The position numbers and the translations under genes were made by a program. Of a DNA stretch of 64,000 nucleotides, positions 3,717 through 20,276 are shown one piece after another. This DNA is from Candidatus Latescibacterota bacterium. GTDB taxonomy: Bacteria; Latescibacterota; UBA2968; UBA8231. The stretch covers positions 736,001-800,000 of the forward strand of contig OZ242005.1 in assembly GCA_965204725.1 (NCBI GenBank), written 5' to 3'. The notes beneath the pieces were generated by a model, which did not search any database, was not told the origin of the DNA, and saw only the letters and a list, made by a program, of their open reading frames with translations. How positions within the stretch are numbered: the first letter of the stretch is position 1; every line of letters starts with the position of its first letter.

Positions 3717-3763
3717 TGCTACAACTTCGCGTCCATTTCACTGGCATCCCTGATTGAATCGCA

Positions 3764-4464: not shown

Positions 4465-4474
4465 GCTGACAATC

Positions 4475-4503
4475 AATATATTCCATTAAAGGAATACAAG
4501 CAA
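4475..4503 (-). promoter_or_regulatory. Putative higBA promoter with palindromic operator
   Basis: Minus strand TTGCTT-N17-TATATT; inverted repeat TATTCC-N6-GGAATA (4479-4496) lies over the spacer and -10, as expected for antitoxin autoregulation. Confidence 0.55.
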
Positions 4504-4627
4504 CGAGACGCATCTGTATTCTAACGCTATCCCGGCTTGACCTGTGTGATATGGAAACTACCTTCGATCGCTTGAATGTCTGCCCGCTTTGCGGTCGCAA
4601 CGCAACAACGTAAATCGCGAGTGCCCT

Positions 4628-5848
4628 ATGAAAATCAAATCTATCGACCTCGTCCGCGTCGAGCGGCCCGACGGCCCTTCGCTCCGCGGCCGTTCCCAAG
4701 CCGGCTCGACGCTCTCCGCTTCAGCCGCGCCCGCCCAGCAGAGCCAATCCCGCCGCAAGGCTTGGCCGACCGAAATCGAAGTGGCTAACCCTATGTCGCG
4801 CTTTCCGCGCTTCAAGCCGCGGCGTCAGCTTTACGCCGCCCGGCAATGGCCCGGCTTTGCGGTCAAAGTAACAGCCGAGGACGGCACTTGGGGCTTGGGC
4901 ACGACGGCGGGCCGGCCGGTCGCAGCCGTGATCGAAGACGCCTTCGCCCATATCCTCATCGGCGAGGACTGCCTAGCCATTGACAAGCTGTGGGACCTGA
5001 TGTTCCGCGTCTCCAAACCCTTCGGCACCGTCGGCATCGCCACCGTCGCCATCAGCGCCGTGGACTTGGCCCTGTGGGATCTGGCCGGCAAGCTGCAACA
5101 AAAGCCTGTGTACCAGCTCATCGGCGGCCCGGCGCGGGAGCGCATTTTTACCTACGCCACGGGCGACGACGTCGATTGGTACCGCGAGTTGGGCTTCAAA
5201 GCCTTCAAACTCCCCTGCCAATACGGCCCGGCCGATGGCCTGTGGGGCCTCGACCAAAACGAGCGGCGGGTAGCCGAAGTCCGCGCCTTGATCGGCTCCG
5301 ACTGCGAGCTCATGCTCGACTGCTACATGGCCTTTGACGTCGAATACAGCGTCCGCCTAGCCGAGCGTCTCCGACCCTACAAGTTGCGCTGGCTGGAGGA
5401 GTGTTTGATCCCCGAAGACGTCAAAGGGCACCTCAAACTCAAAGAACGCCTGCCGTGGCAAACGCTGGCCAGCGGCGAGCACTTCTACACGCCCTATCCC
5501 TACCAACCGCTCATTGAGCACCGCGCCCTCGACGTGCTACAACCCGATATTCACTGGGTCGGTGGGCTGACCGCCTGTATCAAGATCTGCCGTCTAGCCG
5601 AGGCCGCTGGCCTTGAAGTCTGCCTCCACGGCGGCGGGCGCGACCCGTACGGCCAGCACTTGACCTGGGCCATGCCCAATACGCCTTGGGGCGAATACTA
5701 CATCGGCTCAGACCCGGGGATTCCGCTGGAGGAAGTAGCCGAGCCGGGGGCGCTGGTGCCCCAAGACAGCTATCTGGAATTTGTGCCGTGCGGACCGGGA
5801 TTCGATCTAGGAATCGAGGAGGATTGGCTGGTGCCGTTCCGGGCCTAG
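4628..5848 (+). CDS. Mandelate racemase/enolase-superfamily acid-sugar dehydratase (L-rhamnonate dehydratase-like)
   Basis: 'AISAVDLALWDLAGK', 'AFKLP', 'LMLDCYMA', 'WLEECL', 'ASGEH', 'QPDIHWVGGLT'. Confidence 0.85.
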   Translation: MKIKSIDLVRVERPDGPSLRGRSQAGSTLSASAAPAQQSQSRRKAWPTEIEVANPMSRFPRFKPRRQLYAARQWPGFAVKVTAEDGTWGLGTTAGRPVAAVIEDAFAHILIGEDCLAIDKLWDLMFRVSKPFGTVGIATVAISAVDLALWDLAGKLQQKPVYQLIGGPARERIFTYATGDDVDWYRELGFKAFKLPCQYGPADGLWGLDQNERRVAEVRALIGSDCELMLDCYMAFDVEYSVRLAERLRPYKLRWLEECLIPEDVKGHLKLKERLPWQTLASGEHFYTPYPYQPLIEHRALDVLQPDIHWVGGLTACIKICRLAEAAGLEVCLHGGGRDPYGQHLTWAMPNTPWGEYYIGSDPGIPLEEVAEPGALVPQDSYLEFVPCGPGFDLGIEEDWLVPFRA

Positions 5849-5947
5849 GCCGCTTATGGGCTGCGTTTGGGCAATTGATTGCTTACCATTATTTTATTGC
5901 GAGCCTAATAAGCGGCCCTCGTTTGCGTCCTACGGAAAAGAGCCATC

Positions 5948-7981
5948 ATGCGCCGTGCCACTATCGTCCTGTTCACCCTAATTTGCGCGCAAGACGCCAC
6001 CGCCCAGATCGCCCACTGGCAGCTCGGCGGCAGCGGCCTAGCTTGGAGCGCAAACGACACGACCCGCCTCTTCATCGACTTCGCCACCACGCCCGGGGCC
6101 ATCCAGCCCACATACTTCACGCTCGACGAGACGGTTTTCTCCCACATCGACAACTGGGCCTTCTGGCGCGACCCCAGCGACCGCGTCTTCGACTACCTAG
6201 ACGGCGAAACCCCCCGAATGTGGAAGTGGAATCACGGCGTACCCGACCCCTCGGAAAACGGCTCTTGGCTCATTGACGGCGACCCTATCACTTACAACCC
6301 GCCCAAAGCCGACCGCATAGAAAAAGAAACCTTCACCATGGATTTGGGCGTTTTGGTGCCAGCCGTGGCCTTCGGCTTTATCCCGCCCAGCGAGGGCTTC
6401 CGCTCCGACGGCACCCCCCTGCAAACCGACTTCGTCCCCGCCTTTCAGGTGACTGCGGCCGTGGCGCCCGAGCCGCCCGTGCTCGAGGGGAACGTCAACC
6501 CGCTCTCCACCGTCATCGCCGACGTCAACTCCAATTTTGAACCGCGGGTGCGCATCGACTTTACCCGTCAGTACCTGCGCTTCTTTCGCTACCGCCGGAC
6601 GCTCTCGCTGCTAGACGAGGACGCCCAAGCCAAGAGCGGCAATGTCGCCATCGCCCTCATCGGCTCGATCAGCGAGTTCCAGCTCTTTGCCCAAGGAGTG
6701 CCCCAGCAGGCCATCTACAAGACCCAGATAACCCACCTCGGCGAACCGGTGAATTTCGGGCGGCTGTTCTGGCGGGCCACGAAATTCCGCATGGTCGATG
6801 GGACTGCGGTGGAAACTCCAGACGCGGCGGCCCAAATCAAGGTTGAGGTGCGCACCGGCCTAGACGACGACCCGGCCGTCTATCACGAATACATGGACAC
6901 CGGGCTAGAGCGCGTGGTGGAGCGCGATCACTACGAAAACGCCCTCCGCACTCGGTTTGTGCGCATCACGGCCGCGTCCGACCTGAGCGAACGCCAGCCC
7001 AAGCCGGGGGTCCGCGCGTCCATTGGCTACGATTCCGATCACTGGACTTTCTGGTCGGCCCCCTTTGTCGAATCGGGCCAACCGCTCAACCTGCGCAACG
7101 GAACCTATTTGCAGGTCCGCGTCGCCATGGAAAGCGATTCCTTCGACGATTTCGTGCGCCTCGACTCGTTGTGGGTCGAGACCGCGCCGCTGTTGGCCGC
7201 GACCGTGCGCGGCGAAGTGGCCGCCCTAGACGACCCACAGCCCGTCAGCGGGATTACCCAAGTCCCCTTGGGCGAAGCCATCGAATTCGTCTATGACCTC
7301 CAAGCCGATTTCACAGCGGTGGATGCCCCCGGCTTCGACCTATTGCGCCTGCGCACGGGGCACCAAACCGAGCTCAAGAGCCTGCAACTCGGCCCAAGCC
7401 GCCGAGAAACCGCGCCCGCCGCGGTCACCCCAGAGCCGGAGGGCTTGCTCATCCACCTGCCCGAGCGCATCACCCGCGCCAATAACCCGCCGATTCGCCT
7501 CGTCTTTGCAACGGAGATATTTGAATTTGCGACCACTTTCCAGAGCGAAGTCCTAGACAGCCAACGCGACCTTCTGCCGCAACCTGTCGTCGGTGCCGAT
7601 GTCGGCGAGGCCCTCTCGACCAACAGCCTGCGTGTGCTCGGCACCACCGAGCAAGAAACCGCTTTTATCCAGAACCTGACCTTTTCCTCGCCGGTCTTTT
7701 CGCCCAACGGCGACGGCATCCACGACGAATTGCGCGTCGCCTATTCGCTGTTCCGCCTGCCCGCAGCCGTGCCGGTCGTCCTCGCAGTCTATCGCCTCGA
7801 TGGCCGGCGCGTGGCCTCCATTGAGGCCGGCTTGCAAAACGCTGGCCCGCAGAGCCTGCGCTGGGATGGCCGCGACGAAACGGGCCGGCTCCTGCTGCCC
7901 GGCCTCTACCTGACCACCTTAACCCTGCGCTCGGAATTTGCCGCCAAGCCCCAGTTCCACCCTTTGGGGATCGCGTACTAA
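5948..7981 (+). CDS. Secreted protein with C-terminal FlgD Ig-like domain
   Basis: Signal peptide; C-terminal 'FSPNGDGIHD...VYRLDGRRV...LRWDGRDETGRLLLPGLY'; ends 'IAY'. Confidence 0.8.
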   Translation: MRRATIVLFTLICAQDATAQIAHWQLGGSGLAWSANDTTRLFIDFATTPGAIQPTYFTLDETVFSHIDNWAFWRDPSDRVFDYLDGETPRMWKWNHGVPDPSENGSWLIDGDPITYNPPKADRIEKETFTMDLGVLVPAVAFGFIPPSEGFRSDGTPLQTDFVPAFQVTAAVAPEPPVLEGNVNPLSTVIADVNSNFEPRVRIDFTRQYLRFFRYRRTLSLLDEDAQAKSGNVAIALIGSISEFQLFAQGVPQQAIYKTQITHLGEPVNFGRLFWRATKFRMVDGTAVETPDAAAQIKVEVRTGLDDDPAVYHEYMDTGLERVVERDHYENALRTRFVRITAASDLSERQPKPGVRASIGYDSDHWTFWSAPFVESGQPLNLRNGTYLQVRVAMESDSFDDFVRLDSLWVETAPLLAATVRGEVAALDDPQPVSGITQVPLGEAIEFVYDLQADFTAVDAPGFDLLRLRTGHQTELKSLQLGPSRRETAPAAVTPEPEGLLIHLPERITRANNPPIRLVFATEIFEFATTFQSEVLDSQRDLLPQPVVGADVGEALSTNSLRVLGTTEQETAFIQNLTFSSPVFSPNGDGIHDELRVAYSLFRLPAAVPVVLAVYRLDGRRVASIEAGLQNAGPQSLRWDGRDETGRLLLPGLYLTTLTLRSEFAAKPQFHPLGIAY

Positions 7982-7982
7982 G
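7971..7982 (+). repeat. Left copy of imperfect 12-bp direct repeat bounding the ASST array (TCGCGTACTAAG)
   Basis: 11/12 match to TCGCCTACTAAG at 16863-16874; contains the stop codon of the upstream FlgD gene. Confidence 0.55.
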
Positions 7983-9427
7983 TGAGCCGCCTGCCCCAAC
8001 TTCTGCTCGTGTTGGCTATCGCGCTGGCGGCTTTTGCCTACGGCGGCCTCGTCGTCCGCTACAAGCTATTCCCCTTCTCGGTTGTCTCCGACGGCGTAAA
8101 AACCTTGCGGACTATGTACGAGGTACATAAGAAAATTGATGATGGCCGATTCGCGCACTTCGCCGCAGTGCCGCCGGACAGCGCGGCCTCCAACCGCTTC
8201 GAGTTCGTACAAGGCGATGCCCTCAGCGGGCCGGTTCTGTGGCAGGGCGGACGCTACCAGTTCCTCGAGTATTGCCCCGACGAGGGATGCCTAGCGGTAG
8301 AGTACACCGCCACCGGCCAAGTCGCCCACGCCTACCCGTTCCTCCTCGATGAACTGGAACAGGCGGCAAACGCTGCCCGCTCGGACGAATTCCCGTACGG
8401 ACTATCCCCCTCCTTTTCTTTCGCTAGGGATGTTCATCTGATAGGCATATCGCGCTACGCAAATGGCGACCTGCTGGCGGTTTTTCATCAGGACGCGGCT
8501 TTCCCCTATGGTGCGGGCGTTGCGCGGGTCGATCGCGACGGGCATCCGGTCTGGTTCCGGCGCGACTACAGCCATCACTGGCCGCATATCGGAAACGACG
8601 GCGTCGCGCTGGTGCCCGGCATGTTGGCCAGCAGCGAGTCCATAGCTTTTGAGCGAGGACGAAGGACCATCGCGATCAAGTGCCCCAAGGGCAAAACGCA
8701 TCTCGACGCGATCGGCATTATCGACGGGAACGGACAGCTCCTAAAGCGCATCAACCTGATCGACGCCTTGCGCGACTCTCCATTCGCGCTCATCATCCAA
8801 TCCACCTCGAAGCTAAAAAATCCTACGGCCTCTCATACGGCTTCTCCGTGTGACCCTCTTCACCTCAACTTCGTCCACCGGCTTCGCGACGACGCTGGCG
8901 GGACGTGGGGCCTCGCGCCGGGCGACCTCGTAGCGTCCCTGCGCAACCTAAGCGCCTTCGCTATCCTCGATGGCGAATCCGGCCGCGTCAAGCGGCTGGT
9001 CCGGGGGAGTTTCTTGTACCAACACAGCGTCCAGCACCTGACGGGATCGACCTTTCTGATGTTCGACAATCACGGCGGCGATGCGGTTCACGGCCCCTCG
9101 CGGCTGCTGATGATCGACCTCGCCGACAGCCGGGAGACGACCCTCTTTCCCAACGACCAGACGCCCGAACCCCTGCGGCACCTGTTCTCCCACGACCAAA
9201 GCACCATCGACATCTCACCGGATCGCCAACGGGCGATGGTCGTATTCACCCGGCAGGGCATAGCCGTTGAGGTGTGCCTTGCCGATGGCGCGGTGCTCAA
9301 CGTTTTTCATTCTCTGCACGATGTGTCGAGCTTGGAGCAATTTCCCAAAGATCGGCAGCAAAGAGCCGCCGTATTCGAGATGAGCGGACTTTCATACATC
9401 CACAATCAAGGAGGAACGAGTCAATGA
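7982..9427 (+). CDS. Arylsulfotransferase (ASST)-like beta-propeller protein, copy 1 of 6
   Basis: N-terminal TM anchor; ASST-type motifs 'DYSHHW', 'DPLHLN', 'SLRNLS', 'YQHS', 'MFDN'. Confidence 0.78.
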   Translation: MSRLPQLLLVLAIALAAFAYGGLVVRYKLFPFSVVSDGVKTLRTMYEVHKKIDDGRFAHFAAVPPDSAASNRFEFVQGDALSGPVLWQGGRYQFLEYCPDEGCLAVEYTATGQVAHAYPFLLDELEQAANAARSDEFPYGLSPSFSFARDVHLIGISRYANGDLLAVFHQDAAFPYGAGVARVDRDGHPVWFRRDYSHHWPHIGNDGVALVPGMLASSESIAFERGRRTIAIKCPKGKTHLDAIGIIDGNGQLLKRINLIDALRDSPFALIIQSTSKLKNPTASHTASPCDPLHLNFVHRLRDDAGGTWGLAPGDLVASLRNLSAFAILDGESGRVKRLVRGSFLYQHSVQHLTGSTFLMFDNHGGDAVHGPSRLLMIDLADSRETTLFPNDQTPEPLRHLFSHDQSTIDISPDRQRAMVVFTRQGIAVEVCLADGAVLNVFHSLHDVSSLEQFPKDRQQRAAVFEMSGLSYIHNQGGTSQ

Positions 9428-9609
9428 ACGAAGAAAGCATCGTCATGGCCTATATTGGCCCCGGAGCGGGCTTGGCGTCCATCGGGGCCTTGCTGACCCT
9501 AATAGGGGCTGGGCTGCTAATGGTATCGGGGTTTATCTGGTATCCAGCCAAGCGCATACTACAGAAGTGGAGGGAGAGGCGTGCCGCAAAAAAGAACGCC
9601 CCCCGATAA
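9424..9609 (+). CDS. 61-aa membrane peptide with AYIGPGAG motif, TM helix and basic tail
   Basis: ATGA overlap with copy 1 and AAGGAGG RBS; MNEESIVMAYIGPGAGLASIGALLTLIGAGLLMVSGFIWYPAKRILQKWRERRAAKKNAPR. Confidence 0.7.
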   Translation: MNEESIVMAYIGPGAGLASIGALLTLIGAGLLMVSGFIWYPAKRILQKWRERRAAKKNAPR

Positions 9610-9645
9610 GACCTATCTACGCTTCGTGCGATACATCGGAAAGAG

Positions 9646-11076
9646 ATGAATCGCCTACCCCAACTCCTGTTCGTGTTGGCCCTTGCGCTGGCGATCTTTG
9701 CCTACGGCTATCTGAGTCGCCACTACAAGCTATTCCCCTTCTCGGCCATCCACAACGGCGTAAAGACCTTGCGGACTCTGCACGAGCTACATACGAGAAA
9801 GGACAACGGCCGATTCGCGCACTTTGCCGCGGTGCCGCCGGGCAGCGCGGCCTCCCACCGCTTCGAGTTCGTGGCCAGCGATGCCCTCAGCGGCCCGGTT
9901 CTGTGGCACGGCGGACGCTACCAGTTCCTCGAGTATTGCCCCGACGGAGGATGCCTAGCGGTAGAGTTCACAGCCACCGGCCAAGTCGCCCACGCCTACC
10001 CGTTCCGCTTCGATGAACTCGAACAGGCGTCAAACGCTGCCAGCTTCGACGAATTCCCCTACGAGCTATCCCCCGCCTCCTCTTTCGCTAGGGATACTAG
10101 TATAGCGGGCATATCGCGATACATGAACGGCGACCTGCTAGTGGTTTTCCGAACCACTGCGTTCCCGTTTGGTGCGGGCGTTGCGCGGATCGACCGCGCC
10201 GGGCATCCCGTCTGGTTCCGGCGCGACTACAGCCACCACTGGCCGCATCTCGAAGAAGACGGCGTCGCGCTAGTGCCCGGCATGTTGGTCGGTAGCGAGT
10301 CCATATCCTTTGAGCGAGGACCAAAGACCATCACGATTAAGTGCCGCGAGGGCCGACCGTACCTCGACGCGATTAGCACTATCGACGAGGATGGACGGCT
10401 TCTAAGGCGCATCAACCTGATCGACGCCTTGCGCGATTCTCCATTCGCGCACATCATGCAATCCACCTCGGATACAAATTACCGTCTTGCCGCGCCGTGT
10501 GACCCCCTTCACCTCAACTTCGTCCACCGGCTTCGGGACGACGCCGGCGGGACGTGGGGCCTCGCGCCGGGCGACCTCGTGGCGTCCCTACGCAACCTAA
10601 GCGCATTCGCTATCCTCGATGGCGAATCCGGCCGCGTCAAGCGGCTGGTTCGGGGCAGCTTCTTCTATCAACACAGCGTCCAGCACTTAACGGGATCAAC
10701 CTTCCTGATGTTCGACAACTGGGGCGGCGATGGGGTTTACGGCCCCTCGCGGCTGCTGATGATCAACCTCGCCGACAGCCGGGAGACGACCGTCTTTCCC
10801 AACGATAAGACGCCCGAATCCCTGCGAAACCTGTTCTCCGACAAACAAGGCACCATCGACATCTCGCCCGACCGTCAACGGGCGATGGTCGTATTCTTCC
10901 AGCAGGGCGTGACCGTTGAGGTGCGCCTCGCCGACGGCGCGGTGCTGAATGTCTTTCGTTCTCTGCACGATGTGTCGAGCTTGGAGCAATTTCCCGAAGA
11001 GCGGCAGCAAAGATCCGCCGTATTCACGATGAGCGGACTTTACTACATCCACGATCAAGGAGGAGCGAGTAGGTGA
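9646..11076 (+). CDS. ASST-like protein, copy 2 of 6
   Basis: Colinear paralogue of copy 1 with the same catalytic motifs. Confidence 0.78.
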   Translation: MNRLPQLLFVLALALAIFAYGYLSRHYKLFPFSAIHNGVKTLRTLHELHTRKDNGRFAHFAAVPPGSAASHRFEFVASDALSGPVLWHGGRYQFLEYCPDGGCLAVEFTATGQVAHAYPFRFDELEQASNAASFDEFPYELSPASSFARDTSIAGISRYMNGDLLVVFRTTAFPFGAGVARIDRAGHPVWFRRDYSHHWPHLEEDGVALVPGMLVGSESISFERGPKTITIKCREGRPYLDAISTIDEDGRLLRRINLIDALRDSPFAHIMQSTSDTNYRLAAPCDPLHLNFVHRLRDDAGGTWGLAPGDLVASLRNLSAFAILDGESGRVKRLVRGSFFYQHSVQHLTGSTFLMFDNWGGDGVYGPSRLLMINLADSRETTVFPNDKTPESLRNLFSDKQGTIDISPDRQRAMVVFFQQGVTVEVRLADGAVLNVFRSLHDVSSLEQFPEERQQRSAVFTMSGLYYIHDQGGASR

Positions 11077-12557
11077 ATCGCCTACCCCAACTTCTGCTTG
11101 TGTTGGCTCTTATGCTGGCGGCCTTTGCCTACGGCGGCCTTGTCGTCCGCTATAAGCTATTCCCCTTCTCGGTCCTCGCCGACGGCCTAAAGACCTTGCG
11201 GACTATGTACGAGGTACATAAGGAAATTGACGCCGGCCAATTCGCGCACTTCGCCGCGGTGCCGCCGGACAGCGCGGCCTCTAACCGCTTCGAGTTCTTG
11301 GCCGGCGATGCCCTCAGCGGGCCGATTCTGTGGCACGGCGGACGCTACCAGTTCCTCGAGTATTGCCCCGACTGGGGATGCCTAGCGGTAGAATACACGG
11401 CCACTGGCCAAGTCGCCCACGCCTACCCGTTCCGCCCCGATGAACTCGAACAGGCGGCAACCGCTGCCCAATCCGACGAATTCTCCTACGAGCTATCCCC
11501 CGCCTTCTCTTTCGTCAGGGATGTTGTTGTGGCAGCCATATCGCGCTACGCGAATGGCGACCTGCTGGTGGTTTTTCGCCATAGCACTGCGTTCCCTTAT
11601 GGTGCGGGCGTTGCGCGGATCGACCGCACCGGGCATCCGGTCTGGTTCCGGCGCGACTACAGCCACCACTGGCCGCATCTCGAAGAAGACGGCATCGCGC
11701 TGGTGCCCGGCCTGTTGGTCGGCAGCGAGTCCATAGCCTTTGAGCGAGCACAAAAGACCATCACGATTAAGTGCCACGAGAGCCGACCGTACCTCGACGC
11801 GATTAGCACTATCGACGAGGATGGACGGCTTCTAAGGCGCATCAACCTGATCGACGCCTTGCGCGATTCTCCATTCGCGCCCATCATGCAATCTACCTCG
11901 GAACCCAAACGCCATCTTGACGAGCTGCGTGACCCCCTTGACCTCAACTTCGTTCGCAGGCTTCGGGACGACGCGCTGTGCGACCCTCTTCACCTCAACT
12001 TTGTCCACCGGCTTCGGGACGACGCCGGCGGGGCATGGGGCCTCGCGCCGGGCGACCTCGTGGCGTCCCTGCGCAATCTAAGCGCATTCGCTGTCCTCGA
12101 TGGCGAATCCGGCCGCGTCAAGCGGCTGGTTCGGGGGAGTTTCTTCTATCAACACAGCGTCTATCACCTAACGGGATCGACCTTCCTGATGTTCGACAAC
12201 TGGGGCGGCGATGGGGTTCACGGCCCCTCGCGGCTGCTGATGATCGACCTCGCCGACGGCCGGGAGACGACCGTCTTTCCCAACGATAAGACGCCCGCAC
12301 CCCTGCGAAACCTGTTCTCCGACAGAGAAGGCAATATCGACATCTCGCCCGACCGCCAACGGGCGATGGTCGCATTCACCAAGGAGGGCGTGGCTGTCGA
12401 GGTGCGCCTCGCCGACGGCGCGGTGCTGAATGTCTTTCATTCCCTGCACGGTGTGTCGAGCTTGGAGCAGTTCCCCGAGGAGCGAAAGCAAAGAGCGGCT
12501 GTATTCGAGATGAGAGGAATTTACTACATCCGCAATCAAGGAGGAGCGAGTAGGTGA
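11073..12557 (+). CDS. ASST-like protein, copy 3 of 6 (carries a 17-aa internal duplication)
   Basis: Same motifs; GTGA overlap with copy 2; 51-bp tandem duplication at 11919-12020. Confidence 0.78.
   Translation: MNRLPQLLLVLALMLAAFAYGGLVVRYKLFPFSVLADGLKTLRTMYEVHKEIDAGQFAHFAAVPPDSAASNRFEFLAGDALSGPILWHGGRYQFLEYCPDWGCLAVEYTATGQVAHAYPFRPDELEQAATAAQSDEFSYELSPAFSFVRDVVVAAISRYANGDLLVVFRHSTAFPYGAGVARIDRTGHPVWFRRDYSHHWPHLEEDGIALVPGLLVGSESIAFERAQKTITIKCHESRPYLDAISTIDEDGRLLRRINLIDALRDSPFAPIMQSTSEPKRHLDELRDPLDLNFVRRLRDDALCDPLHLNFVHRLRDDAGGAWGLAPGDLVASLRNLSAFAVLDGESGRVKRLVRGSFFYQHSVYHLTGSTFLMFDNWGGDGVHGPSRLLMIDLADGRETTVFPNDKTPAPLRNLFSDREGNIDISPDRQRAMVAFTKEGVAVEVRLADGAVLNVFHSLHGVSSLEQFPEERKQRAAVFEMRGIYYIRNQGGASR
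11919..12020 (+). repeat. Diverged 51-bp in-frame tandem duplication in ASST copy 3
   Basis: DELRDPLDLNFVRRLRD / DALCDPLHLNFVHRLRD at 11919-11969 and 11970-12020. Confidence 0.9.
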
Positions 12558-13990
12558 ATCGCCTACCCCAACTCCTGCTTGTGTTGGCTATCGCGCTGGC
12601 GTCGTTTGCCTACGGCGGCCTTGTCGTCCACTACAAGCTATTCCCCTTCCCGGTCCTCTCCGACAGCCTAAAGACCTTGCGGACTATGCACGAGCTACAT
12701 TTTACGAGAAAGGACGACGGCCGATTCTTACATTTCGCCGCGGTGCCGCCGGACAGCGCGGCTTCCCACCGCTTCCAATTCCTACAAGGCGATGCCCTCA
12801 GCGGCCCGGTTCTGTGGCACGGCGGACGCAACCAGTTCCTCGAGCATTGCCCCGACGGGGGATGCCTAGCGGTAGAATACACCGCCACCGGCCAAGTCGC
12901 CCATGCCTATCCGTTCCGCAACGATGAACTGGAGCAGGCGGCCGACGCTGCAAGCTCCGACGAATTCCCCTACGAGTTATCCCCCGTCGCCTCTTTCGCT
13001 AGGGATGCTAGTACGATGGGCATGTCGCGATACATGAACGGCGACCTGCTGGTGGTTTTTCAACAGTACGCTGCTTTCCCGTTTGGTGCGGGCGTTGCGC
13101 GGATCGACCGCGCCGGGCATCCGGTGTGGTTCCGGCGCGACTACAGCCACCACTGGCCGCATCTCGAAGAAGACGGCGTCGCGCTGGTGCCCGGCCTGTT
13201 GGTCGGCAGCGAGTCCATAGCCTTTGAGCGAGCACGAAAGACCATCACGATTAAGTGCCGCACGAGCCGACCGTACCTCGACGCGATCGGCATTATCGAC
13301 GGCAGTGGACGGCTTCTAAGGCGCGTCAACCTGATCGACGCCTTGCGCGATTCTCCATTCGTCCATCTCCTGCAATCCACCTCGGAACCCAAACGCCGTC
13401 TTGACGCGCTGTGTGACCCCCTTCACCTCAACTTCGTTCACCGGCTTCGAGCCGACGCCGGCGGAACGTGGGGCCTCGCGCCGGGCGATCTCGTGGCGTC
13501 CCTACGCAACCTCAGTGCCTTCGCTATCCTCGATGGCGAATCCGGCCGTGTCAAACGGATGGTTCGGGGGAGTTTCTTCTATCAACACAGCGTCCAGCAC
13601 CTGACGGGATCGACCTTCCTGATGTTCGACAACTGGGGCGGCGATGGGGTTCACGGCCCCTCGCGGCTGCTGATGATCGACCTCGCCGACGGCCGGGAGA
13701 CGACCGTCTTTCCCAACGACCAGACGCCCCAATCCCTGCGCAACCTGTTCTCCGAGGACCAAGGCACAATCGACATCTCGCCCGACCGCCAACGGGCGGT
13801 GGTCGCATTCACCGAGGCGGGCATGGCTGTCGAGGTGCGCCTTGCCGACGGCGCAGTGCTGAATGTCTTTCATTCCCTCCACGATGTGTCGAGCTTGGAG
13901 CAGTTCCCCGAACAACGAAAGCAAAGAGCAGCCGTATTCGAGATGAGAGGGCTTTACTACATCCGCAATCAAGGAGGAGCGAGTAGATGA
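12554..13990 (+). CDS. ASST-like protein, copy 4 of 6
   Basis: Same motifs; GTGA overlap with copy 3. Confidence 0.78.
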   Translation: MNRLPQLLLVLAIALASFAYGGLVVHYKLFPFPVLSDSLKTLRTMHELHFTRKDDGRFLHFAAVPPDSAASHRFQFLQGDALSGPVLWHGGRNQFLEHCPDGGCLAVEYTATGQVAHAYPFRNDELEQAADAASSDEFPYELSPVASFARDASTMGMSRYMNGDLLVVFQQYAAFPFGAGVARIDRAGHPVWFRRDYSHHWPHLEEDGVALVPGLLVGSESIAFERARKTITIKCRTSRPYLDAIGIIDGSGRLLRRVNLIDALRDSPFVHLLQSTSEPKRRLDALCDPLHLNFVHRLRADAGGTWGLAPGDLVASLRNLSAFAILDGESGRVKRMVRGSFFYQHSVQHLTGSTFLMFDNWGGDGVHGPSRLLMIDLADGRETTVFPNDQTPQSLRNLFSEDQGTIDISPDRQRAVVAFTEAGMAVEVRLADGAVLNVFHSLHDVSSLEQFPEQRKQRAAVFEMRGLYYIRNQGGASR

Positions 13991-15420
13991 ATCGCCTACC
14001 CCAACTCCTGCTTGTGTTGGCTGTCGCGCTGGCGTCCTTTGCCTACGGCCTCTTTGTCGTCCGCTACAAGCTATTCCCCTTCTCGGTCCTCTCCGACGGT
14101 CTAAAGACCTCGAACACTCTGTACGAGTCAAGTATGAAAAAGAATTACGGCCGATTCGTACACTTCGCCGCGGTGCCGCCGGACAGCGCGGCCTCCAACC
14201 GCTTCGAGTTCGCACAAGGCGATGCCCTTAGCGGGCCGGTTCTGTGGCACGGCGGACGCTACCAGTTCCTCGAGCATTGCCCTGACTGGGGATGCCTAGC
14301 AGTAGAGTTCACGGCCACCGGCCAAGTCGCCCACGCCTATCCGTACCGCCTCAATGAACTGGAGCAGGCGGCCGACGATGCCCTCTCCGACGAATTCCCC
14401 TACGAGCTACCCCCCACCTTCTCTTTCGCTAGGGATGCTAGTGCGATGGGTATGTCGCGATACATGAACGGCGACCTGCTGGTGATTTTTCGACATAGCA
14501 CTGCTTTCCCCTATGGTGCGGGCGTTGCGAGGATTGACCGCGATGGGCATCCGGTCTGGTTCCGGCGCGACTACAGCCACCACTGGCCGCATATCGACGA
14601 CGACGGCGTCGCGCTGGTGCCCGGCGAACAGGTTGGCAGCGAGTCTATATCTTTTGAGCGAGCGCGAAGGACCATCACGCTCAAATGCCGCACGAGCCGA
14701 CCGTATATCGAGGAGATCAGGACTATCGACGGGAATGGACGGCTCCTAAAGCGCCTCAACCTGCTCGACGTCCTGCGCGATTCTCCATTCGCGCACATCA
14801 TGCAATCTGCCTCGGCACCAGCATGGTATCTTGATGGGCCGTGTGATCCCCTTCACCTCAACTTCGTTCACCGGCTCCGCGACGACGCGGGCGGGACATG
14901 GGGCCTCGCGCCGGGCGACCTCGTGGCGTCCCTACGGAACCTAAGCGCATTCGCTATCCTCGATGGCGAATCCGGCCGCGTCAAGCGGCTGGTTAGGGGA
15001 AGTTTCCTCTATCAACATAGCGTCCAGCACCTGACGGGATCGACCTTCCTGATGTTCGACAATTACGGCGGCGATGGGGTTCACGGCCCCTCAAGGCTGC
15101 TCATGATCGACCTCGCCGACGGCCGGGAGACGACCGTCTTTCCCAACGATAAGACGCCCCAACCCCTGCGAAACCTGTTCTCCGACGACCAAGGCGATAT
15201 CGACATCTCGCCTGACCGCCAACGGGCGCTGGTCGCATTCACGAGGGAGGGCGTGGCCGTTGAGGTGCGCCTTGCCGACGGCGCGGTGCTGAATGTCTTC
15301 CATTCCCTCCACGATGTGTCGAGCTTGGAGCAGTTCCCCGAACAGCGGCAACAAAGAGCCGCCGTATTTAAGATGGGAGGGCTTTACTACATCCGCAATC
15401 AAGGAGGAACGAGTAGATGA
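13987..15420 (+). CDS. ASST-like protein, copy 5 of 6
   Basis: Same motifs; ATGA overlap with copy 4. Confidence 0.78.
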   Translation: MNRLPQLLLVLAVALASFAYGLFVVRYKLFPFSVLSDGLKTSNTLYESSMKKNYGRFVHFAAVPPDSAASNRFEFAQGDALSGPVLWHGGRYQFLEHCPDWGCLAVEFTATGQVAHAYPYRLNELEQAADDALSDEFPYELPPTFSFARDASAMGMSRYMNGDLLVIFRHSTAFPYGAGVARIDRDGHPVWFRRDYSHHWPHIDDDGVALVPGEQVGSESISFERARRTITLKCRTSRPYIEEIRTIDGNGRLLKRLNLLDVLRDSPFAHIMQSASAPAWYLDGPCDPLHLNFVHRLRDDAGGTWGLAPGDLVASLRNLSAFAILDGESGRVKRLVRGSFLYQHSVQHLTGSTFLMFDNYGGDGVHGPSRLLMIDLADGRETTVFPNDKTPQPLRNLFSDDQGDIDISPDRQRALVAFTREGVAVEVRLADGAVLNVFHSLHDVSSLEQFPEQRQQRAAVFKMGGLYYIRNQGGTSR

Positions 15421-16835
15421 GTCGCCTACCCCAACTCCTGCTCGTGTTGGCCCTTGCGCTGGCGGCCTTTGCCTACGGCTATCTTAGTCGCCACTACAAG
15501 CTATTCCCCTTCTCGGCCATCCACAACGGCGTAAAGACCTTGCGGACTCTACACAAGCTAAGTATGAGAAAGGACGACGGCCGATTCGCGCACTTCGCCG
15601 CGGTGCCGCCAGACAGCGCGGCCTCCAACCGCTTCGAGTTCGTACAAGGCGATGCCATCAACGACCCGATTCTGTGGCAAGGCGGACGCTATCAGTTCCT
15701 TGAGTATTGCCCCGACTGGGGGTGCCTAGCGGTAGAATACACCGCCACCGGCCAAGTCGCCCATGCCTACCCGTTCCGCAGCGATGAGCTGGAGCAGGCG
15801 GCAGACGCTGCCCGCTCCGACGAATTCCCCTACGAGCTATCCCCCGCCGCCTCTTTCGTCAGGGATGTTAATGTGGCAGCCATGTCGCGCTACGCAAACG
15901 GCGACCTGCTGGTGGTTTTTTACCAAGACCCTGCTTTCCCCTATGGTGCGGGCGTTGCGCGGATCGACCGCGCCGGGCATCCCGTCTGGTTCCGGCGCGA
16001 CTACAGCCACCACTGGCCGCATCTCGAAGAAGACGGCGTCGCGCTGGTGCCCGGCCTGTTGGTTGGCAGCGCGCCCATATCTTTTGAGCGAGCACGAAAG
16101 ACCATCACGATCAAGTGCCGCACAGGCCGACCGTATCTCGACGAGATCCGCACTATTGACGGGAGTGGACAGATCCTAAAGCGCCTCAACCTGATCGACG
16201 CCTTGCGCGACTCTCCATTCGCGCACATCATGCAATCTACCTCGGAACCAAATTACCGTCTTGACTCGCCGTGTGACCCTCTTCACCTCAACTTCGTTCA
16301 CCAGCTTCGAGACGACGCCGGCGGAACGTGGGGCCTCGCGCCGGGCGACCTCGTGGCGTCCCTACGCAACCTCAGTGCCTTCGCTATCCTCGATGGCGAA
16401 TCCGGCCGCGTCAAGCGGCTGGTACGCGGGAGTTTCTTGTATCAACACAGCGTCCAGCACCTGACGGGATCGACCTTCCTGATGTTTGACAACTGGGGCA
16501 GCGATGGGATTCACGGCCCCTCGCGGCTGCTGATGATCGACCTCGCCGACGGCCGGGAGACGACCGTCTTTCCCAACGACCAGACGCCCCAACCCCTGCG
16601 AAACCTATTCTCCCACGACCAAAGCACCATCGACATCTCGCCCGACCGCCAACGGGCGATGGTCGCATTCACCAAGGAGGGCGTGGCCGTAGAGGTGCGC
16701 CTCGCCGACGGCGCGGTGCTGAATGTCTTCCATTCCCTGCACGATGTGTCGAGCTTGGAGCAGTTCCCCGAGGAGCGAAAGCAAAGAGCGGCCGTATTCG
16801 AGATGAGAGGAATTTACTACATTCGCAGTAGATGA
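15417..16835 (+). CDS. ASST-like protein, copy 6 of 6
   Basis: Same motifs; ATGA overlap with copy 5; lacks the 'NQGGA' tail that carries the RBS in the other copies. Confidence 0.78.
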   Translation: MSRLPQLLLVLALALAAFAYGYLSRHYKLFPFSAIHNGVKTLRTLHKLSMRKDDGRFAHFAAVPPDSAASNRFEFVQGDAINDPILWQGGRYQFLEYCPDWGCLAVEYTATGQVAHAYPFRSDELEQAADAARSDEFPYELSPAASFVRDVNVAAMSRYANGDLLVVFYQDPAFPYGAGVARIDRAGHPVWFRRDYSHHWPHLEEDGVALVPGLLVGSAPISFERARKTITIKCRTGRPYLDEIRTIDGSGQILKRLNLIDALRDSPFAHIMQSTSEPNYRLDSPCDPLHLNFVHQLRDDAGGTWGLAPGDLVASLRNLSAFAILDGESGRVKRLVRGSFLYQHSVQHLTGSTFLMFDNWGSDGIHGPSRLLMIDLADGRETTVFPNDQTPQPLRNLFSHDQSTIDISPDRQRAMVAFTKEGVAVEVRLADGAVLNVFHSLHDVSSLEQFPEERKQRAAVFEMRGIYYIRSR

Positions 16836-16862
16836 CGAGCAACGCATCGTCATGGCATCCAT

Positions 16863-16874
16863 TCGCCTACTAAG
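16863..16874 (+). repeat. Right copy of 12-bp direct repeat (TCGCCTACTAAG), running into the RBS of the next gene
   Basis: Matches 7971-7982; overlaps AAGGAGG (16872-16878) upstream of ATG 16885. Confidence 0.55.
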
Positions 16875-16884
16875 GAGGCTTCCA

Positions 16885-19236: not shown

Positions 19237-19270
19237 CCTCAACCTCTCAAAACAGTAAGGATAGGAATTC

Positions 19271-20193: not shown

Positions 20194-20276
20194 CCCGCAC
20201 GGCCTATGTCTCCTATATGGCGCGCCGGATCGCGCAAATGGGCGGCTAAGTGGAGCATAGCATCCGTTGTTCCGCC

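What the first reader, a model, noticed from the sequence alone, without database searches (positions are those of the whole stretch)
7982..16835. Six-gene tandem array of diversified, membrane-anchored arylsulfotransferase-like enzymes
Seen: six intact head-to-tail paralogues (472-494 aa) with near-identical scaffolds. Each has an N-terminal TM anchor, invariant SHHW / DPLHLN / SLRNLS / YQHS / MFDN motifs and conserved Cys residues, and none is pseudogenised. Known: PAPS-independent ASSTs are periplasmic beta-propellers that use His/His/Asn/Arg/His residues to transfer sulfate between phenolic compounds, and they are usually single-copy. Inference: a selected library of extracytoplasmic sulfotransferases with different acceptor ranges, for detoxifying or modifying host phenolics or for variable sulfation of the cell surface. 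I know of no described system like this; best candidate for novelty in the window.
Basis: partly seen in the sequence, partly recalled or inferred. Interest (0 to 1): 0.85.

Follow-up and report, generated by a model that had tools for sequence, protein, structure and literature searches.

The report
Six tandem membrane-anchored arylsulfotransferase-like genes
A sponge-associated bacterium carries six intact side-by-side copies of a membrane-anchored enzyme that most likely moves sulfate groups between molecules outside the cytoplasm; it is a real, lineage-specific expansion of a known but poorly studied enzyme family, and whether the copies do different jobs is not shown.

Summary
Six intact, head-to-tail + strand genes (472-494 aa, 79-84% identical) lie at 7982-16835, four of them joined by 4-bp overlaps. 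The genome has 5.43 Mb in 2 contigs, and copy-specific unitigs have the same depth as the flanks in runs of two studies, so this is not a chimera of strain alleles.

They are divergent PF14269 (Arylsulfotran_2) proteins: 26-37 bits against a cut-off of 27. The best solved fold is the ASST-type sulfotransferase Cpz4. The H-x-N, R, Q-H and F-D-N motifs are kept across the subfamily. An N-terminal signal anchor and four conserved Cys point to an extracytoplasmic location.

New context:
- The orthologous locus of a sister Latescibacterota MAG has 2 copies between the same flanks.
- Only 4 of 168 genomes of the phylum hold the subfamily.
- Single-copy relatives sit in a module of ASST-like gene, small 'A-YIGPGAG' membrane protein and PAPS-type Sulfotransfer_3 gene, in 10 of 12 metagenome loci.

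The 'selected library' claim is not shown. The core has omega 0.11 and the variable loops about 1, not significantly above 1. Multi-copy ASSTs are already described in Sutterella (17 genes).

Verdict: a new variant of a known kind, of moderate interest.

The parts
4589..5848 (+). Enolase-superfamily gene (acid-sugar dehydratase-like), a conserved upstream neighbour. It is context only; no functional link is shown.
   Evidence: It matches MR_MLE_C (146 bits) and MR_MLE_N (56 bits). The nearest NCBIfam model is L-rhamnonate dehydratase, at 276 bits, below its cut-off of 393. It is 93% identical and syntenic in the sister MAG locus L026. A second MR_MLE gene precedes the 50% paralogue in L009.
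5948..7981 (+). 677-aa secreted protein with a FlgD_ig C-terminal domain. Its stop abuts the start of copy 1.
   Evidence: FlgD_ig scores 29 bits. It is 91% identical in L026. It is a distant paralogue (24-26%) of the downstream 794-aa protein. The genome has 150 FlgD_ig matches, so this adjacency is only weak evidence of a functional link.
7982..9427 (+). ASST-like copy 1 (481 aa).
   Evidence: PF14269 scores 35.8 bits. All motifs and all four Cys are present. Its orthologue P0024 is 95.6% identical.
9424..9609 (+). 61-aa membrane-protein gene ('A-YIGPGAG' motif, one hydrophobic helix, basic tail), coupled to copy 1 by an ATGA overlap.
   Evidence: The sequence and the GGAGGA 8 nt upstream were read. 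The gene is conserved after ASST-like genes in L025 and L027 (81-83%), in L013 (53%) and in 10 of 12 metagenome loci. The invariant columns are A-Y-x-G-x-G-x-G-L, then G, then G-x-x-W-Y-P. It has no Pfam or NCBIfam hit. It occurs only once in G000.
9646..11076 (+). ASST-like copy 2 (476 aa).
   Evidence: PF14269 scores 37.1 bits. Its orthologue P0018 is 96.0% identical.
11073..12557 (+). ASST-like copy 3 (494 aa). It carries a 51-nt tandem duplication (11919-11969 and 11970-12020) that adds a degenerate copy of the H-x-N segment (DPLDLN) before the intact one.
   Evidence: PF14269 scores 26.1 bits, just under the cut-off of 27. The duplication was found and translated. The intact motifs are retained.
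12554..13990 (+). ASST-like copy 4 (478 aa).
   Evidence: PF14269 scores 32.4 bits. It overlaps both neighbouring genes by 4 bp.
13987..15420 (+). ASST-like copy 5 (477 aa). This is the copy that was modelled.
   Evidence: PF14269 scores 36.4 bits. The AlphaFold2 model has pLDDT 84.8 and pTM 0.83: helix 4-27, helix 32-50, then an all-beta domain. Foldseek's best matches are 9kf4 and 9kf6, both Cpz4.
15417..16835 (+). ASST-like copy 6 (472 aa).
   Evidence: PF14269 scores 32.3 bits. Its orthologue P0011 is 97.5% identical.
16852..19236 (+). 794-aa secreted protein with an F5/8 type C (galactose-binding-like) domain and a FlgD_ig / CHU_C (T9SS-type) C-terminal domain, 17 bp after copy 6.
   Evidence: Pfam hits are FlgD_ig 30.3, F5_F8_type_C_2 29.3 and CHU_C 27.6 bits. 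It is 92% identical in L026.

Best explanation
The region is a real, co-oriented and translationally coupled array of six paralogous genes.

Protein architecture. Each gene encodes a type II (N-in, C-out) membrane-anchored protein. Its roughly 420-aa beta-propeller domain faces the periplasm and is probably held by two disulfides.

Family and chemistry. The proteins are a divergent subfamily of the PAPS-independent arylsulfate sulfotransferase family (Pfam PF14269; nearest solved relative Cpz4). By homology they should work by a ping-pong mechanism. A sulfate ester donor sulfurylates the histidine of the Q-H motif (His344 in copy 5). The sulfuryl group is held by His198/His199, His290, Asn292 and Arg317, and is then passed to a hydroxyl acceptor.

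Origin of the array. It is a lineage-specific expansion. The sister genome has two copies between the same flanking genes, and the ancestral state is a single gene. That single gene sits in a module with a small 'A-YIGPGAG' membrane protein and a cytoplasmic PAPS-type (PF13469) sulfotransferase. This suggests a two-step relay like Cpz8 to Cpz4: PAPS activates a carrier inside the cell and the ASST-like enzyme delivers sulfate outside.

State of the copies. All six keep the catalytic core under strong purifying selection, while three peripheral segments drift at about the neutral rate. They are working isozymes. Whether they differ in donor or acceptor range is not shown.

Shown here: the genes, their integrity, family and fold, motif conservation, synteny and selection pattern. 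Inferred: topology, disulfides, sulfotransfer chemistry and the relay. Unknown: donor and acceptor.
For: Anatomy: searches give the ORFs, the 4-bp overlaps and the invariant motifs.

Family:
- PF14269 scores 26.1-37.1 bits against a cut-off of 27; 5 of 6 copies are above it.
- Foldseek puts Cpz4 (9kf4, 9kf6) first at E 1.6e-12, TM about 0.5 and 16% identity. The next hit is a generic propeller at 8e-9.
- Atlas neighbours are PF14269 clusters at 0.95-0.97.

Chain of homology: subfamily profile A2 against the genome's 30% paralogue family A3 gives hhalign probability 99.4%, E 4e-21. SHHW aligns with AHHD, HLN with HTN, SLRN with SLRN, QHS with QHD and FDN with FDN. That paralogue scores 112 bits on PF14269 and 37 bits on PF05935. 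It matches the Cpz4 sequence at E 2.7e-4 over the R-N, Q-H-D and F-D-N segments.

EcAST residues: His436 (sulfated), His252, His356, Asn358 and Arg374, from a passage of PMC13426309.

Conservation in 118 aligned rows (the query plus 117 representatives of 50% clusters): H290 115, N292 116, R317 104 (plus 4 K), Q343 114, H344 114, D358 115, and the four Cys 108-114. An N-terminal hydrophobic 19-mer is present in 90 of 117.

Topology: homologues carry 40-90-aa basic tails before the helix.

Selection, from six independent pairs: overall omega 0.49 and core (residues 286-360) 0.11, with P(omega<1) = 4.5e-21.

Expansion:
- L026 of the sister MAG reads enolase (93%), 677-aa protein (91%), 2 copies, 794-aa protein (92%), HicB (95%), AlkB (90%).
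- The subfamily is found in 2 of 31 genomes of the genus and 4 of 168 of the phylum at E <= 1e-60.
- Copies 1, 2 and 6 each have a 95.6-97.5% orthologue elsewhere, although the copies are only 79-84% alike among themselves.

Sulfur context:
- A PF13469 gene lies directly after the 50% paralogue (L009) and after the tandem pair in G025 (L013).
- It lies 2.1 kb from the 30% paralogue, beside a sulfatase gene.
- It follows the ASST-like gene and the small gene in 10 of 12 metagenome loci.
- APS kinase is present in G000 at 220 bits.

Precedent: Cpz8 makes a phenolic sulfate that Cpz4 uses (passage of PMC4257720).

Assembly.
Against: - The Pfam scores sit at the cut-off. No NCBIfam model matches, and profile A2 finds no solved structure by sequence.
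- E. coli ASST is not among the 50 listed Foldseek hits. No direct alignment to it was made, so the residue mapping to EcAST rests on motif order and a two-step chain.
- TM to Cpz4 is only about 0.5 at 6.8-6.9 A rmsd.
- The array itself has no PF13469 gene, and no type III PKS was found in G000, which is 94% complete. The relay, if real, is not encoded at this locus, and the donor is unknown.
- The variable segments have omega about 1, not above 1. That fits relaxed constraint as well as diversification.
I could not test whether the variable loops line the active site or whether the Cys pairs touch.
- No biochemical datum exists for any member of this subfamily.
Confidence: 0.65

Rival explanations
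1. The six copies are functionally equivalent. The array arose by unequal crossing-over, perhaps for dosage. The differences between copies are neutral drift in unconstrained surface loops and in the membrane-proximal linker, not a library of specificities.
For: Omega is 0.99, 1.09 and 1.40 in the variable segments, and none is significantly above 1 (pooled 1.09, P = 0.38; array pairs alone 0.91). One of the three segments is the juxtamembrane linker helix, far in sequence from the motifs. Copy number differs between sister genomes, 6 against 2. One dispersed copy is frameshifted, which is the turnover expected of a birth-and-death family.
Against: The copies are old (dS 0.15-0.33) and yet all six are intact with core omega 0.09-0.11. 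Copies 1, 2 and 6 each keep a 95.6-97.5% orthologue in another population while staying 79-84% alike among themselves. So individual copies are kept apart rather than homogenised or lost. The most variable loop (274-285) directly precedes the active-site C-D-P-L-H-x-N segment. It has been expanded by duplication twice, in copy 3 and in G046 arrA.
Confidence: 0.3
2. The proteins keep the ASST fold and histidine machinery but catalyse another reaction in vivo. One candidate is net desulfation of host or algal sulfated metabolites, with water or an abundant phenol as acceptor. Another is transfer of a different group.
For: The subfamily is remote from every characterised ASST (16% identity to Cpz4; Pfam at the cut-off). 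Natural donors and acceptors are unknown for most ASSTs (passage of PMC13426309; abstract of PMC12809581). A sulfatase gene lies near the 30% paralogue. Runs that hold the stretch are labelled sponge or marine metagenome. That sponges are rich in sulfated compounds is my recollection and comes from no call.
Against: Linkage to PAPS-type sulfotransferase genes at three loci in two genomes (L009 and L044 in G000, L013 in G025) and in 10 of 12 metagenome loci argues for building sulfate esters, not scavenging them. The full sulfuryl-binding constellation is kept.
Confidence: 0.15
3. The array is an assembly artefact in which strain alleles of one or two genes were laid out in tandem.
For: Short-read contigs break inside the array, and none of the listed pieces spans it. 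The sister genome has only two copies at this locus.
Against: The genome is in 2 contigs, with the window on a 5.38-Mb contig. The copies differ by 11-15% in DNA, far beyond strain alleles. Copy-specific unitigs have the same depth as the single-copy flanks in X1 and X2, which come from two studies, and 30 of 30 bins are covered in each. Junctions are clean 4-bp gene overlaps.
Confidence: 0.02

Closest known systems
Cpz4, the ASST-type sulfotransferase of caprazamycin biosynthesis (Streptomyces sp. MK730-62F2; PDB 9kf4 and 9kf6)
   Same: It is the best solved structural match. It shares the R-N, Q-H and F-D-N segments through the 30% paralogue. It is PAPS-independent and works downstream of a PAPS-dependent sulfotransferase, Cpz8 (passage of PMC4257720). 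It sulfates a sugar hydroxyl rather than a phenol (passage of PMC13426309).
   Different: Identity is about 16% and TM about 0.5. Cpz4 belongs to an antibiotic gene cluster, as a passage of PMC13426309 describes. That it is single-copy and lacks a membrane anchor is my recollection and was not checked. The type III PKS that makes the Cpz donor has no counterpart found in G000. The window proteins are anchored, carry four conserved Cys and stand six in tandem.
Periplasmic arylsulfate sulfotransferase of E. coli CFT073 (EcAST/AssT, PF05935; PDB 3ELQ is cited in a figure legend of PMC10932419)
   Same: It is an extracytoplasmic, PAPS-independent beta-propeller enzyme. It forms a sulfo-histidine intermediate (His436) with His252, His356, Asn358 and Arg374. 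The same residue types stand in the same order here. It contains a disulfide, and the window proteins have conserved Cys.
   Different: EcAST is soluble with a cleaved signal peptide, about 600 aa, of the PF05935 type, and encoded with DsbL/DsbI. The window proteins do not reach PF05935 at E <= 0.01 and have a signal anchor. No dsb gene was found among the immediate neighbours annotated. EcAST is not among the 50 listed Foldseek hits.
The 17 asst paralogues of Sutterella wadsworthensis 3_1_45B (PMC10932419)
   Same: This is a large within-genome expansion of ASST genes, with conserved active-site regions and variable N- and C-terminal regions (abstract and passages).
   Different: The Sutterella genes are dispersed 'isolated units' (passage), about 600 aa, EcAST-like, in a gut betaproteobacterium. 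The genes here form a head-to-tail, translationally coupled array of a PF14269-type anchored subfamily in a Latescibacterota genome.
Two-step sulfation relay Cpz8 (PAPS-dependent) to phenolic sulfate to Cpz4 (Tang et al. 2013; seen only as a citation and summary in PMC4257720)
   Same: A PAPS-type sulfotransferase gene is genetically coupled to an ASST-type gene. This is seen for single-copy relatives in 10 of 12 metagenome loci and for both non-array paralogues in G000.
   Different: Here the ASST-type partner is predicted to be extracytoplasmic. The module adds a small conserved membrane protein, and in 3 of 7 metagenome loci examined a 122-aa polytopic membrane ORF. No PKS was found. The six-gene array itself lacks the PAPS-type gene.

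Membership tests
PAPS-independent arylsulfate sulfotransferase (ASST; Pfam PF14269 / PF05935) | Match to the family profile at or above the curated cut-off | tested here: met
   PF14269 scores 35.8, 37.1, 26.1, 32.4, 36.4 and 32.3 bits against a cut-off of 27, so 5 of 6 copies are above it and copy 3 is just below. PF05935 is not reached at E <= 0.01. Profile-profile comparison with the genome's clear PF14269/PF05935 member gives probability 99.4%.
PAPS-independent arylsulfate sulfotransferase (ASST; Pfam PF14269 / PF05935) | Beta-propeller catalytic domain that resembles a solved ASST more than other propellers | tested here: met
   The model has pLDDT 84.8. Foldseek puts Cpz4 first at E 1.6e-12, four orders of magnitude better than the next hit, a propeller of unknown function at 8.1e-9. 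TM is only about 0.5. The VIA-align libraries were unavailable.
PAPS-independent arylsulfate sulfotransferase (ASST; Pfam PF14269 / PF05935) | Catalytic histidine that carries the sulfuryl group (EcAST His436) | tested here: inconclusive
   A Q-H motif (His344 in copy 5) is invariant in the six copies and present in 114 of 118 subfamily rows. It aligns with Q-H-D of the 30% paralogue, which aligns with W-Q-H-D of Cpz4. No direct alignment to EcAST was made, and I did not see which Cpz4 residue is sulfated.
PAPS-independent arylsulfate sulfotransferase (ASST; Pfam PF14269 / PF05935) | Sulfuryl-binding residues (EcAST His252, His356, Asn358, Arg374) | tested here: inconclusive
   S-H-H-W, H-x-N and S-L-R-N occur in the same order and are conserved (H199 114, H290 115, N292 116, R317 104 of 118). 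The EcAST list comes from a passage of PMC13426309. The equivalence rests on order and motif type, not on a superposition.
PAPS-independent arylsulfate sulfotransferase (ASST; Pfam PF14269 / PF05935) | Extracytoplasmic location | tested here: met
   This is a prediction only. It rests on an N-terminal helix at 4-27, homologues with 40-90-aa basic tails before the helix, four conserved Cys, and a hydrophobic N-terminal 19-mer in 90 of 117 representatives.
PAPS-independent arylsulfate sulfotransferase (ASST; Pfam PF14269 / PF05935) | Sulfate transfer from an aryl sulfate donor to a hydroxyl acceptor without PAPS | not testable with these tools
   This needs an enzyme assay.
Two-step sulfation relay (Cpz8/Cpz4 type) | A PAPS-dependent sulfotransferase encoded with the ASST-type gene | tested here: not met
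   No PF13469 gene lies in or beside the six-gene array. The feature is met for the 50% paralogue (L009), for G025 (L013), near the 30% paralogue (L044) and in 10 of 12 metagenome loci.
Two-step sulfation relay (Cpz8/Cpz4 type) | A dedicated enzyme that makes the phenolic sulfate carrier (a type III PKS in the Cpz system) | tested here: not met
   PF02797 has 0 matches in G000, which is 94% complete. The control rang in 3 of 14 genomes.

The most novel reading that the evidence does not exclude
The anchored ASST-like enzyme, the small 'A-YIGPGAG' membrane protein and the cytoplasmic PF13469 sulfotransferase form an undescribed system that carries activated sulfate across the inner membrane.

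The proposed steps are as follows. The PAPS-type enzyme sulfates the invariant tyrosine that becomes the first residue of the small protein after signal-peptide cleavage, or it sulfates a small phenol moved by the 122-aa membrane protein. This aryl sulfate is then displayed on the periplasmic face. The ASST-like propeller uses it as a PAPS-free donor to sulfate envelope or secreted glycans and proteins.

In the sponge-associated lineage the transferase alone was multiplied, to six in tandem and at least eight of this clade genome-wide. This gives one donor system several acceptor-specific outlets, possibly acting on host matrix or on the many FlgD_ig-tailed secreted proteins.
Probability: 0.12. 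Interest if true: 0.8.

Novelty: new variant of a known kind. Interest (0 to 1): 0.5.

Why it matters
How bacteria sulfate molecules outside the cytoplasm, where there is no PAPS, and what the natural donors of ASSTs are, remain open questions. The abstract of PMC12809581 and a passage of PMC13426309 both say so.

This subfamily offers a tractable handle on both:
- It is an anchored, extracytoplasmic ASST-like enzyme.
- Its single-copy relatives are genetically tied to a PAPS-type sulfotransferase and a tiny conserved membrane protein.
- One symbiont lineage has multiplied it six-fold.

If the copies differ in specificity, the array is a natural panel of PAPS-independent sulfation catalysts. 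If they do not, it is a clean case of birth-and-death evolution in a symbiont genome.

As it stands, this is a solid annotation with a testable hypothesis, not a new kind of system.

Tried and rejected
- Profile A2 against PDB sequences found nothing relevant; the only hit was a Fab at E 0.49.
- NCBIfam has no model for the array protein, the small protein, the paralogues or the PF13469 protein.
- Complex prediction of copy 1 with the 61-aa protein gave no answer (score 0.01 against a mark of 0.32). This is not evidence either way.
- The promoter and terminator scan of 3700-19700 was uninformative: 2 promoter-like sites against 4.1 expected, and 18 terminator-like sites against 13.0 +/- 3.8.
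- The look-up of sequencing runs listed no RNA holder, so nothing can be said on expression.
- In the laid runs, X4 covers 19 of 30 bins and X5 28 of 30. The uncovered parts are not interpreted. A single X5 contig joint that skips 14617-16669 (depth 3, side 22) is treated as a repeat artefact or a variant and was not followed.
- The 122-aa membrane ORF of the metagenome module was not found in G000. The tool warns that an empty answer shows nothing.
- All-pairs windowed dN/dS suggested omega up to 2.9 in the loop before the H-x-N motif. I rejected that figure because the pairs are not independent and few codons are aligned. The independent-pairs test gives 1.40, not significant.
- I considered that the FlgD_ig flanking proteins are the substrates. 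With 150 FlgD_ig matches in the genome adjacency is weak evidence, so this stays only within the novel case.
- Greedy ORF clustering of metagenome neighbours was spoiled by antisense ORFs in high-GC DNA. I replaced it with strand-specific inspection.
- Three literature searches bore on novelty. 'latescibacter' combined with ASST terms listed 10 of 39 papers, none of them with 'latescibacter'. 'sponge + symbiont + arylsulfotransferase' found 0 papers. 'sponge + latescibacter + sulfotransferase' found 0 papers. These cover only the held library. Supplements were closed and not consulted. The supplementary tables of PMC10932419 could bear on whether any Sutterella asst genes are adjacent.
- Rows dropped from the tree: of P0004-P0090 only proteins longer than 440 aa were used; P0091-P0120 were not included; 4 exact duplicates of G046 proteins were removed.
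- Rows dropped from the conservation count: only the 117 of 150 listed representatives with 430-640 aa were used.
This report is the same text with that field added.

Full report
OBSERVATION

One search lists six + strand ORFs without internal stops: 7982-9427 (481 aa), 9646-11076 (476), 11073-12557 (494), 12554-13990 (478), 13987-15420 (477) and 15417-16835 (472). They align over their whole length. Pairwise protein identity is 78.8-84.3% and DNA identity 84.8-89.4%.

Copies 2/3, 3/4, 4/5 and 5/6 overlap by 4 bp. Copy 1 begins one base after the stop of the upstream 677-aa gene. Copy 6 ends 17 bp before the downstream 794-aa gene.

The only longer spacer, between copies 1 and 2, is not empty. 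It holds a 61-aa ORF (9424-9609) whose ATG overlaps the stop of copy 1 (ATGA), with GGAGGA 8 nt upstream.

Copy 3 is longer because of a 51-nt tandem duplication (11919-11969 and 11970-12020, 82% alike). The duplication adds a degenerate copy of the active-site segment (DPLDLN...) in front of the intact CDPLHLN.

IS THE ARRAY REAL?

The window lies at C1:736001-800000 of a genome of 5,432,979 bases in two contigs. The contig is 5.38 Mb long. The copies differ by 11-15% in DNA, far more than strain alleles would.

Logan contigs of four runs from four studies were laid on 7500-17400.
- X1 and X2 cover 30 of 30 bins, X5 28 of 30 and X4 19 of 30.
- In X1 the listed copy-specific unitigs have depth 93.5-100.5, against 96.1 and 86.6 for the flanking contigs.
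- In X2 they have 19.6-28.3, against 24.1 and 22.8.

Every copy is therefore equimolar with the single-copy flanks. A tandem layout of alleles from different strains would not give that result. Two caveats apply: no short-read contig spans the array, and X1 may be the source sample. I rate the artefact reading at about 2%.

WHAT THE PROTEINS ARE

Pfam gives one family only, PF14269 (Arylsulfotran_2), at 26.1-37.1 bits against a cut-off of 27. Five of six copies are above it and copy 3 is just below. NCBIfam has no model. A profile of 42 subfamily members finds no solved structure by sequence. This is a remote subfamily.

An AlphaFold2 model of copy 5 (pLDDT 84.8, pTM 0.83) has three parts:
- an N-terminal helix at 4-27;
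- a second helix at 32-50;
- an all-beta domain.

Foldseek against the PDB puts the two entries of Cpz4 first (E 1.6e-12, TM about 0.5, 16% identity). Cpz4 is the ASST-type sulfotransferase of caprazamycin biosynthesis. The next hit is a propeller of unknown function at 8.1e-9, followed by other generic propellers. The ESM Atlas neighbours are 'arylsulfotransferase family' clusters at 0.95-0.97, with PF14269 on 95-100% of their members.

A chain of homology fixes the motifs.
1. The genome has a 439-aa paralogue (30% identity; L012). It scores 112 bits on PF14269 and 37 bits on PF05935.
2. Its family profile aligns with the array subfamily at hhalign probability 99.4% (E 4e-21). SHHW pairs with AHHD, H-L-N with H-T-N, SLRN with SLRN, Q-H-S with Q-H-D and F-D-N with F-D-N.
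3. The same paralogue matches the Cpz4 sequence (E 2.7e-4) over the R-N, Q-H-D and F-D-N segments.

A passage of PMC13426309 describes the E. coli enzyme. His436 is transiently sulfated, and His252, His356, Asn358, Arg374 and Thr501 coordinate the sulfuryl group. In copy 5 numbering the window proteins carry H198/H199, H290-x-N292, R317 and Q343-H344, in that order.

I aligned the query with 117 representatives of 50%-identity clusters. Those 117 were the listed hits of 430-640 aa among the 150 best. That search found 251 representatives at E <= 1e-30 and 2257 at E <= 1e-3. Conservation in the 118 rows:
- H290 in 115, N292 in 116, R317 in 104 (plus 4 K);
- Q343 in 114, H344 in 114, D358 in 115;
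- the four Cys in 108-114.

I made no direct superposition on EcAST. EcAST is not among the 50 Foldseek rows listed, and the VIA-align libraries were unavailable. The mapping to EcAST residues is therefore an inference from motif order.

TOPOLOGY

The N-terminal hydrophobic helix is short-tailed in the window proteins. Homologues of 510-580 aa carry 40-90-residue basic tails before it. That marks a type II signal anchor (N-in, C-out) rather than a cleaved signal peptide. A hydrophobic N-terminal 19-mer is present in 90 of 117 representatives. Two conserved Cys pairs (C-x4-C, and C234 with C286) fit an oxidising compartment.

GENOMIC AND EVOLUTIONARY CONTEXT

The organism. Relatives in genome contigs are titled 'MAG: Candidatus Latescibacterota bacterium'. 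Public runs that hold the stretch are labelled sponge metagenome, marine metagenome or coded organisms, across 8 studies.

Other members in G000:
- an intact 75% copy (L006, 486 aa);
- a frameshifted copy (L007);
- a 50% paralogue (L009);
- the 30% paralogue (L012).

The sister genome. G046 has seven matches at E <= 1e-60. Its locus L026 is syntenic with the window: enolase-superfamily gene (93% aa identity), 677-aa protein (91%), two ASST-like genes, 794-aa protein (92%), HicB (95%), AlkB-like (90%). The flanks are thus 90-95% identical, while the ASST-like genes are 70-74% identical between the genomes and number 2 against 6.

Distribution. At E <= 1e-60 the subfamily is found in 2 of 31 genomes of the genus and 4 of 168 of the phylum. 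The 30% paralogue is seen in 22 of 24 genus relatives.

The tree. A tree of 98 rows was built by the quick method, with SH-aLRT support only. It places the six array copies in one 33-row clade. Within that clade most array copies pair with a different metagenome protein. By direct alignment copy 1 is 95.6% identical to P0024, copy 2 is 96.0% identical to P0018 and copy 6 is 97.5% identical to P0011. All three are listed with the same longest-contig length, 53,866. The duplications therefore predate the split of these populations, and the copies are kept apart rather than homogenised. The two G046 array genes form their own clade.

SELECTION

All-pairs dN/dS is 0.38-0.66 with dS 0.15-0.33. The results:

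| Region (copy 5 numbering) | omega | Test |
|---|---|---|
| Overall | 0.49 | below 1 |
| Catalytic core, 286-360 | 0.11 | P(omega<1) = 4.5e-21 |
| Linker helix, 28-56 | 0.99 | not above 1 |
| Segment 141-158 | 1.09 | not above 1 |
| Loop 274-285 | 1.40 | P(omega>1) = 0.29 |
| Three variable segments pooled | 1.09 | P(omega>1) = 0.38 |
| Pooled, array pairs alone | 0.91 | not above 1 |

All copies are constrained enzymes. The variable parts evolve at about the neutral rate, and positive selection is not demonstrated.

Loop 274-285 directly precedes the active-site Cys-Asp-Pro-Leu-His-x-Asn segment. It has been lengthened by partial duplication of that motif in copy 3, and separately in G046 arrA. 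I lacked coordinates to measure how close it lies to the active site.

A CONSERVED MODULE ROUND THE SINGLE-COPY RELATIVES

The 50% paralogue in G000 is followed directly by a PF13469 (Sulfotransfer_3) gene at 61 bits (L009). G025, in another family of the class, has two ASST-like genes, a small-protein gene and a PF13469 gene (L013). The 30% paralogue lies 2.1 kb from a second PF13469 gene (72.6 bits), in a neighbourhood that also holds a sulfatase gene (L044).

Twelve metagenome loci carry relatives at 36-52% identity. Ten of them (L028-L037) show the same order: ASST-like gene, small-protein gene, PF13469-like gene at 48-65% identity. Of the other two, L039 ends inside the ASST-like gene and L038 has only 311 nt downstream.

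The small protein family (13 sequences) has invariant A-Y-x-G-x-G-x-G-L, one hydrophobic helix, W-Y-P and a basic tail. In 9 metagenome members a signal-peptide-like segment ends exactly at the invariant Ala-Tyr. In 3 of 7 metagenome loci examined, a 122-aa polytopic membrane ORF lies between the small gene and the PF13469 gene.

The PF13469 protein has a P-R-A-G-T-T loop, which aligns with the corresponding loop of PDB 2zq5 (E 0.005). That 2zq5 is a mycobacterial sulfotransferase is my recollection, not a tool result. G000 has an APS kinase at 220 bits, so PAPS can be made. No type III PKS domain was found.

The only published precedent I saw for coupling a PAPS-type enzyme to an ASST-type enzyme is Cpz8 and Cpz4 (passage of PMC4257720). 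The primary papers, Tang 2013 and Kaysser 2010, were seen only as citations.

MECHANISM PROPOSED

Each array gene makes an anchored periplasmic propeller that transfers sulfuryl groups through sulfo-His344. This is inferred from homology. The ancestral module suggests that the donor is produced from PAPS by the cytoplasmic PF13469 enzyme, and that it reaches the periplasm with the help of the small membrane proteins. That step is inferred from synteny only.

The array retains one small-protein gene and no PF13469 gene. If the relay exists, it would have to draw on the two PF13469 genes elsewhere in the genome, or on aryl sulfates from the environment. Donor and acceptor are unknown.

My confidence that these are extracytoplasmic sulfuryl-transfer enzymes in a real six-gene array is about 0.65. 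My confidence that the copies differ in specificity is lower and unproven.

COMPARISON WITH WHAT IS KNOWN, AND NOVELTY

The family (PF14269/ASST) and its chemistry are known. Large within-genome expansions are described: Sutterella wadsworthensis has 17 asst genes, dispersed and about 600 aa (PMC10932419, abstract and passages).

I did not find the following in the held library:
- this anchored subfamily;
- a head-to-tail array of ASST-type genes;
- the module of ASST-like gene, small protein and PF13469 gene.

I class the finding as a new variant of a known kind, with interest 0.5. The first is overstated and the second is not shown.

TOOLS THAT WERE CLOSED

Supplements of papers were not available.

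Noticed in passing
window 9424-9609 (+): A 61-aa ORF (A-YIGPGAG motif, one hydrophobic helix, basic tail) overlaps the stop of copy 1. It belongs to a conserved family with no Pfam or NCBIfam model. Metagenome members have a signal-peptide-like segment that ends exactly at the invariant Ala-Tyr.
   Followed up: yes
window 11919-12020 (+), inside copy 3; also L026 (G046 arrA): A 51-nt tandem duplication of the active-site H-x-N segment, with His changed to Asp in the upstream repeat. G046 arrA has a separate partial duplication of the same motif (CDPFDLGF) in the same loop.
   Followed up: partly
L009 (G000:C1:3416933-3421333) and L028-L037: Single-copy relatives sit in a conserved module of ASST-like gene, small membrane protein, sometimes a 122-aa polytopic membrane ORF, and PF13469 sulfotransferase. 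In G000 the 50% paralogue lies between an MR_MLE enolase-superfamily gene and the PF13469 gene.
   Followed up: yes
L044 (G000:C1:1232000-1245000): The neighbourhood of the 30% paralogue reads sulfatase, DUF6785/DUF6784 membrane protein, NTP-transferase, ASST-like gene (- strand), HSDR_N-like gene, PF13469 sulfotransferase, SDR, GH20b-domain protein. This paralogue is the one shared by 22 of 24 genus relatives.
   Followed up: partly
L007/L011 (G000:C1:4727533-4728958) and L024: A frameshifted copy of the ASST-like gene lies downstream of a 2-oxoacid dehydrogenase E2 gene. At the syntenic place in G046 there are two copies with a DDE transposase fragment (PF13612, 142 bits) between them.
   Followed up: partly
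whole genome G000: There are 150 scored matches to the FlgD_ig domain (PF13860), mostly at the C-termini of 600-1500-aa ORFs. This is a very large family of proteins with a T9SS-like tail, and two of its members flank the array.
   Followed up: no
window 19271-19594 and 19558-20193 (+): A HicB-family antitoxin-like gene (69 bits) overlaps by 37 bp the start of an AlkB-like 2OG-Fe(II) oxygenase gene (140 bits). No HicA partner was looked for.
   Followed up: no
window 20250-21290 (+): An ankyrin-repeat protein (Ank_2, 114 bits). My recollection is that this feature is often reported in sponge symbionts. It fits the sponge metagenome labels of the runs that hold the stretch.
   Followed up: no
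window 23733-24992 (-) and 1164-2327 (-): A neutral/alkaline ceramidase N-terminal domain protein (63.5 bits) and a CBM9-domain protein (50 bits). Both are possible host-lipid or glycan-directed functions near the array.
   Followed up: no
window 14617-16669: One low-depth contig of run X5 (depth 3, 22 letters on the shorter side) joins 14617 to 16669 and so skips 2051 bases. This could be a variant with fewer copies in another population, or a repeat artefact.
   Followed up: no
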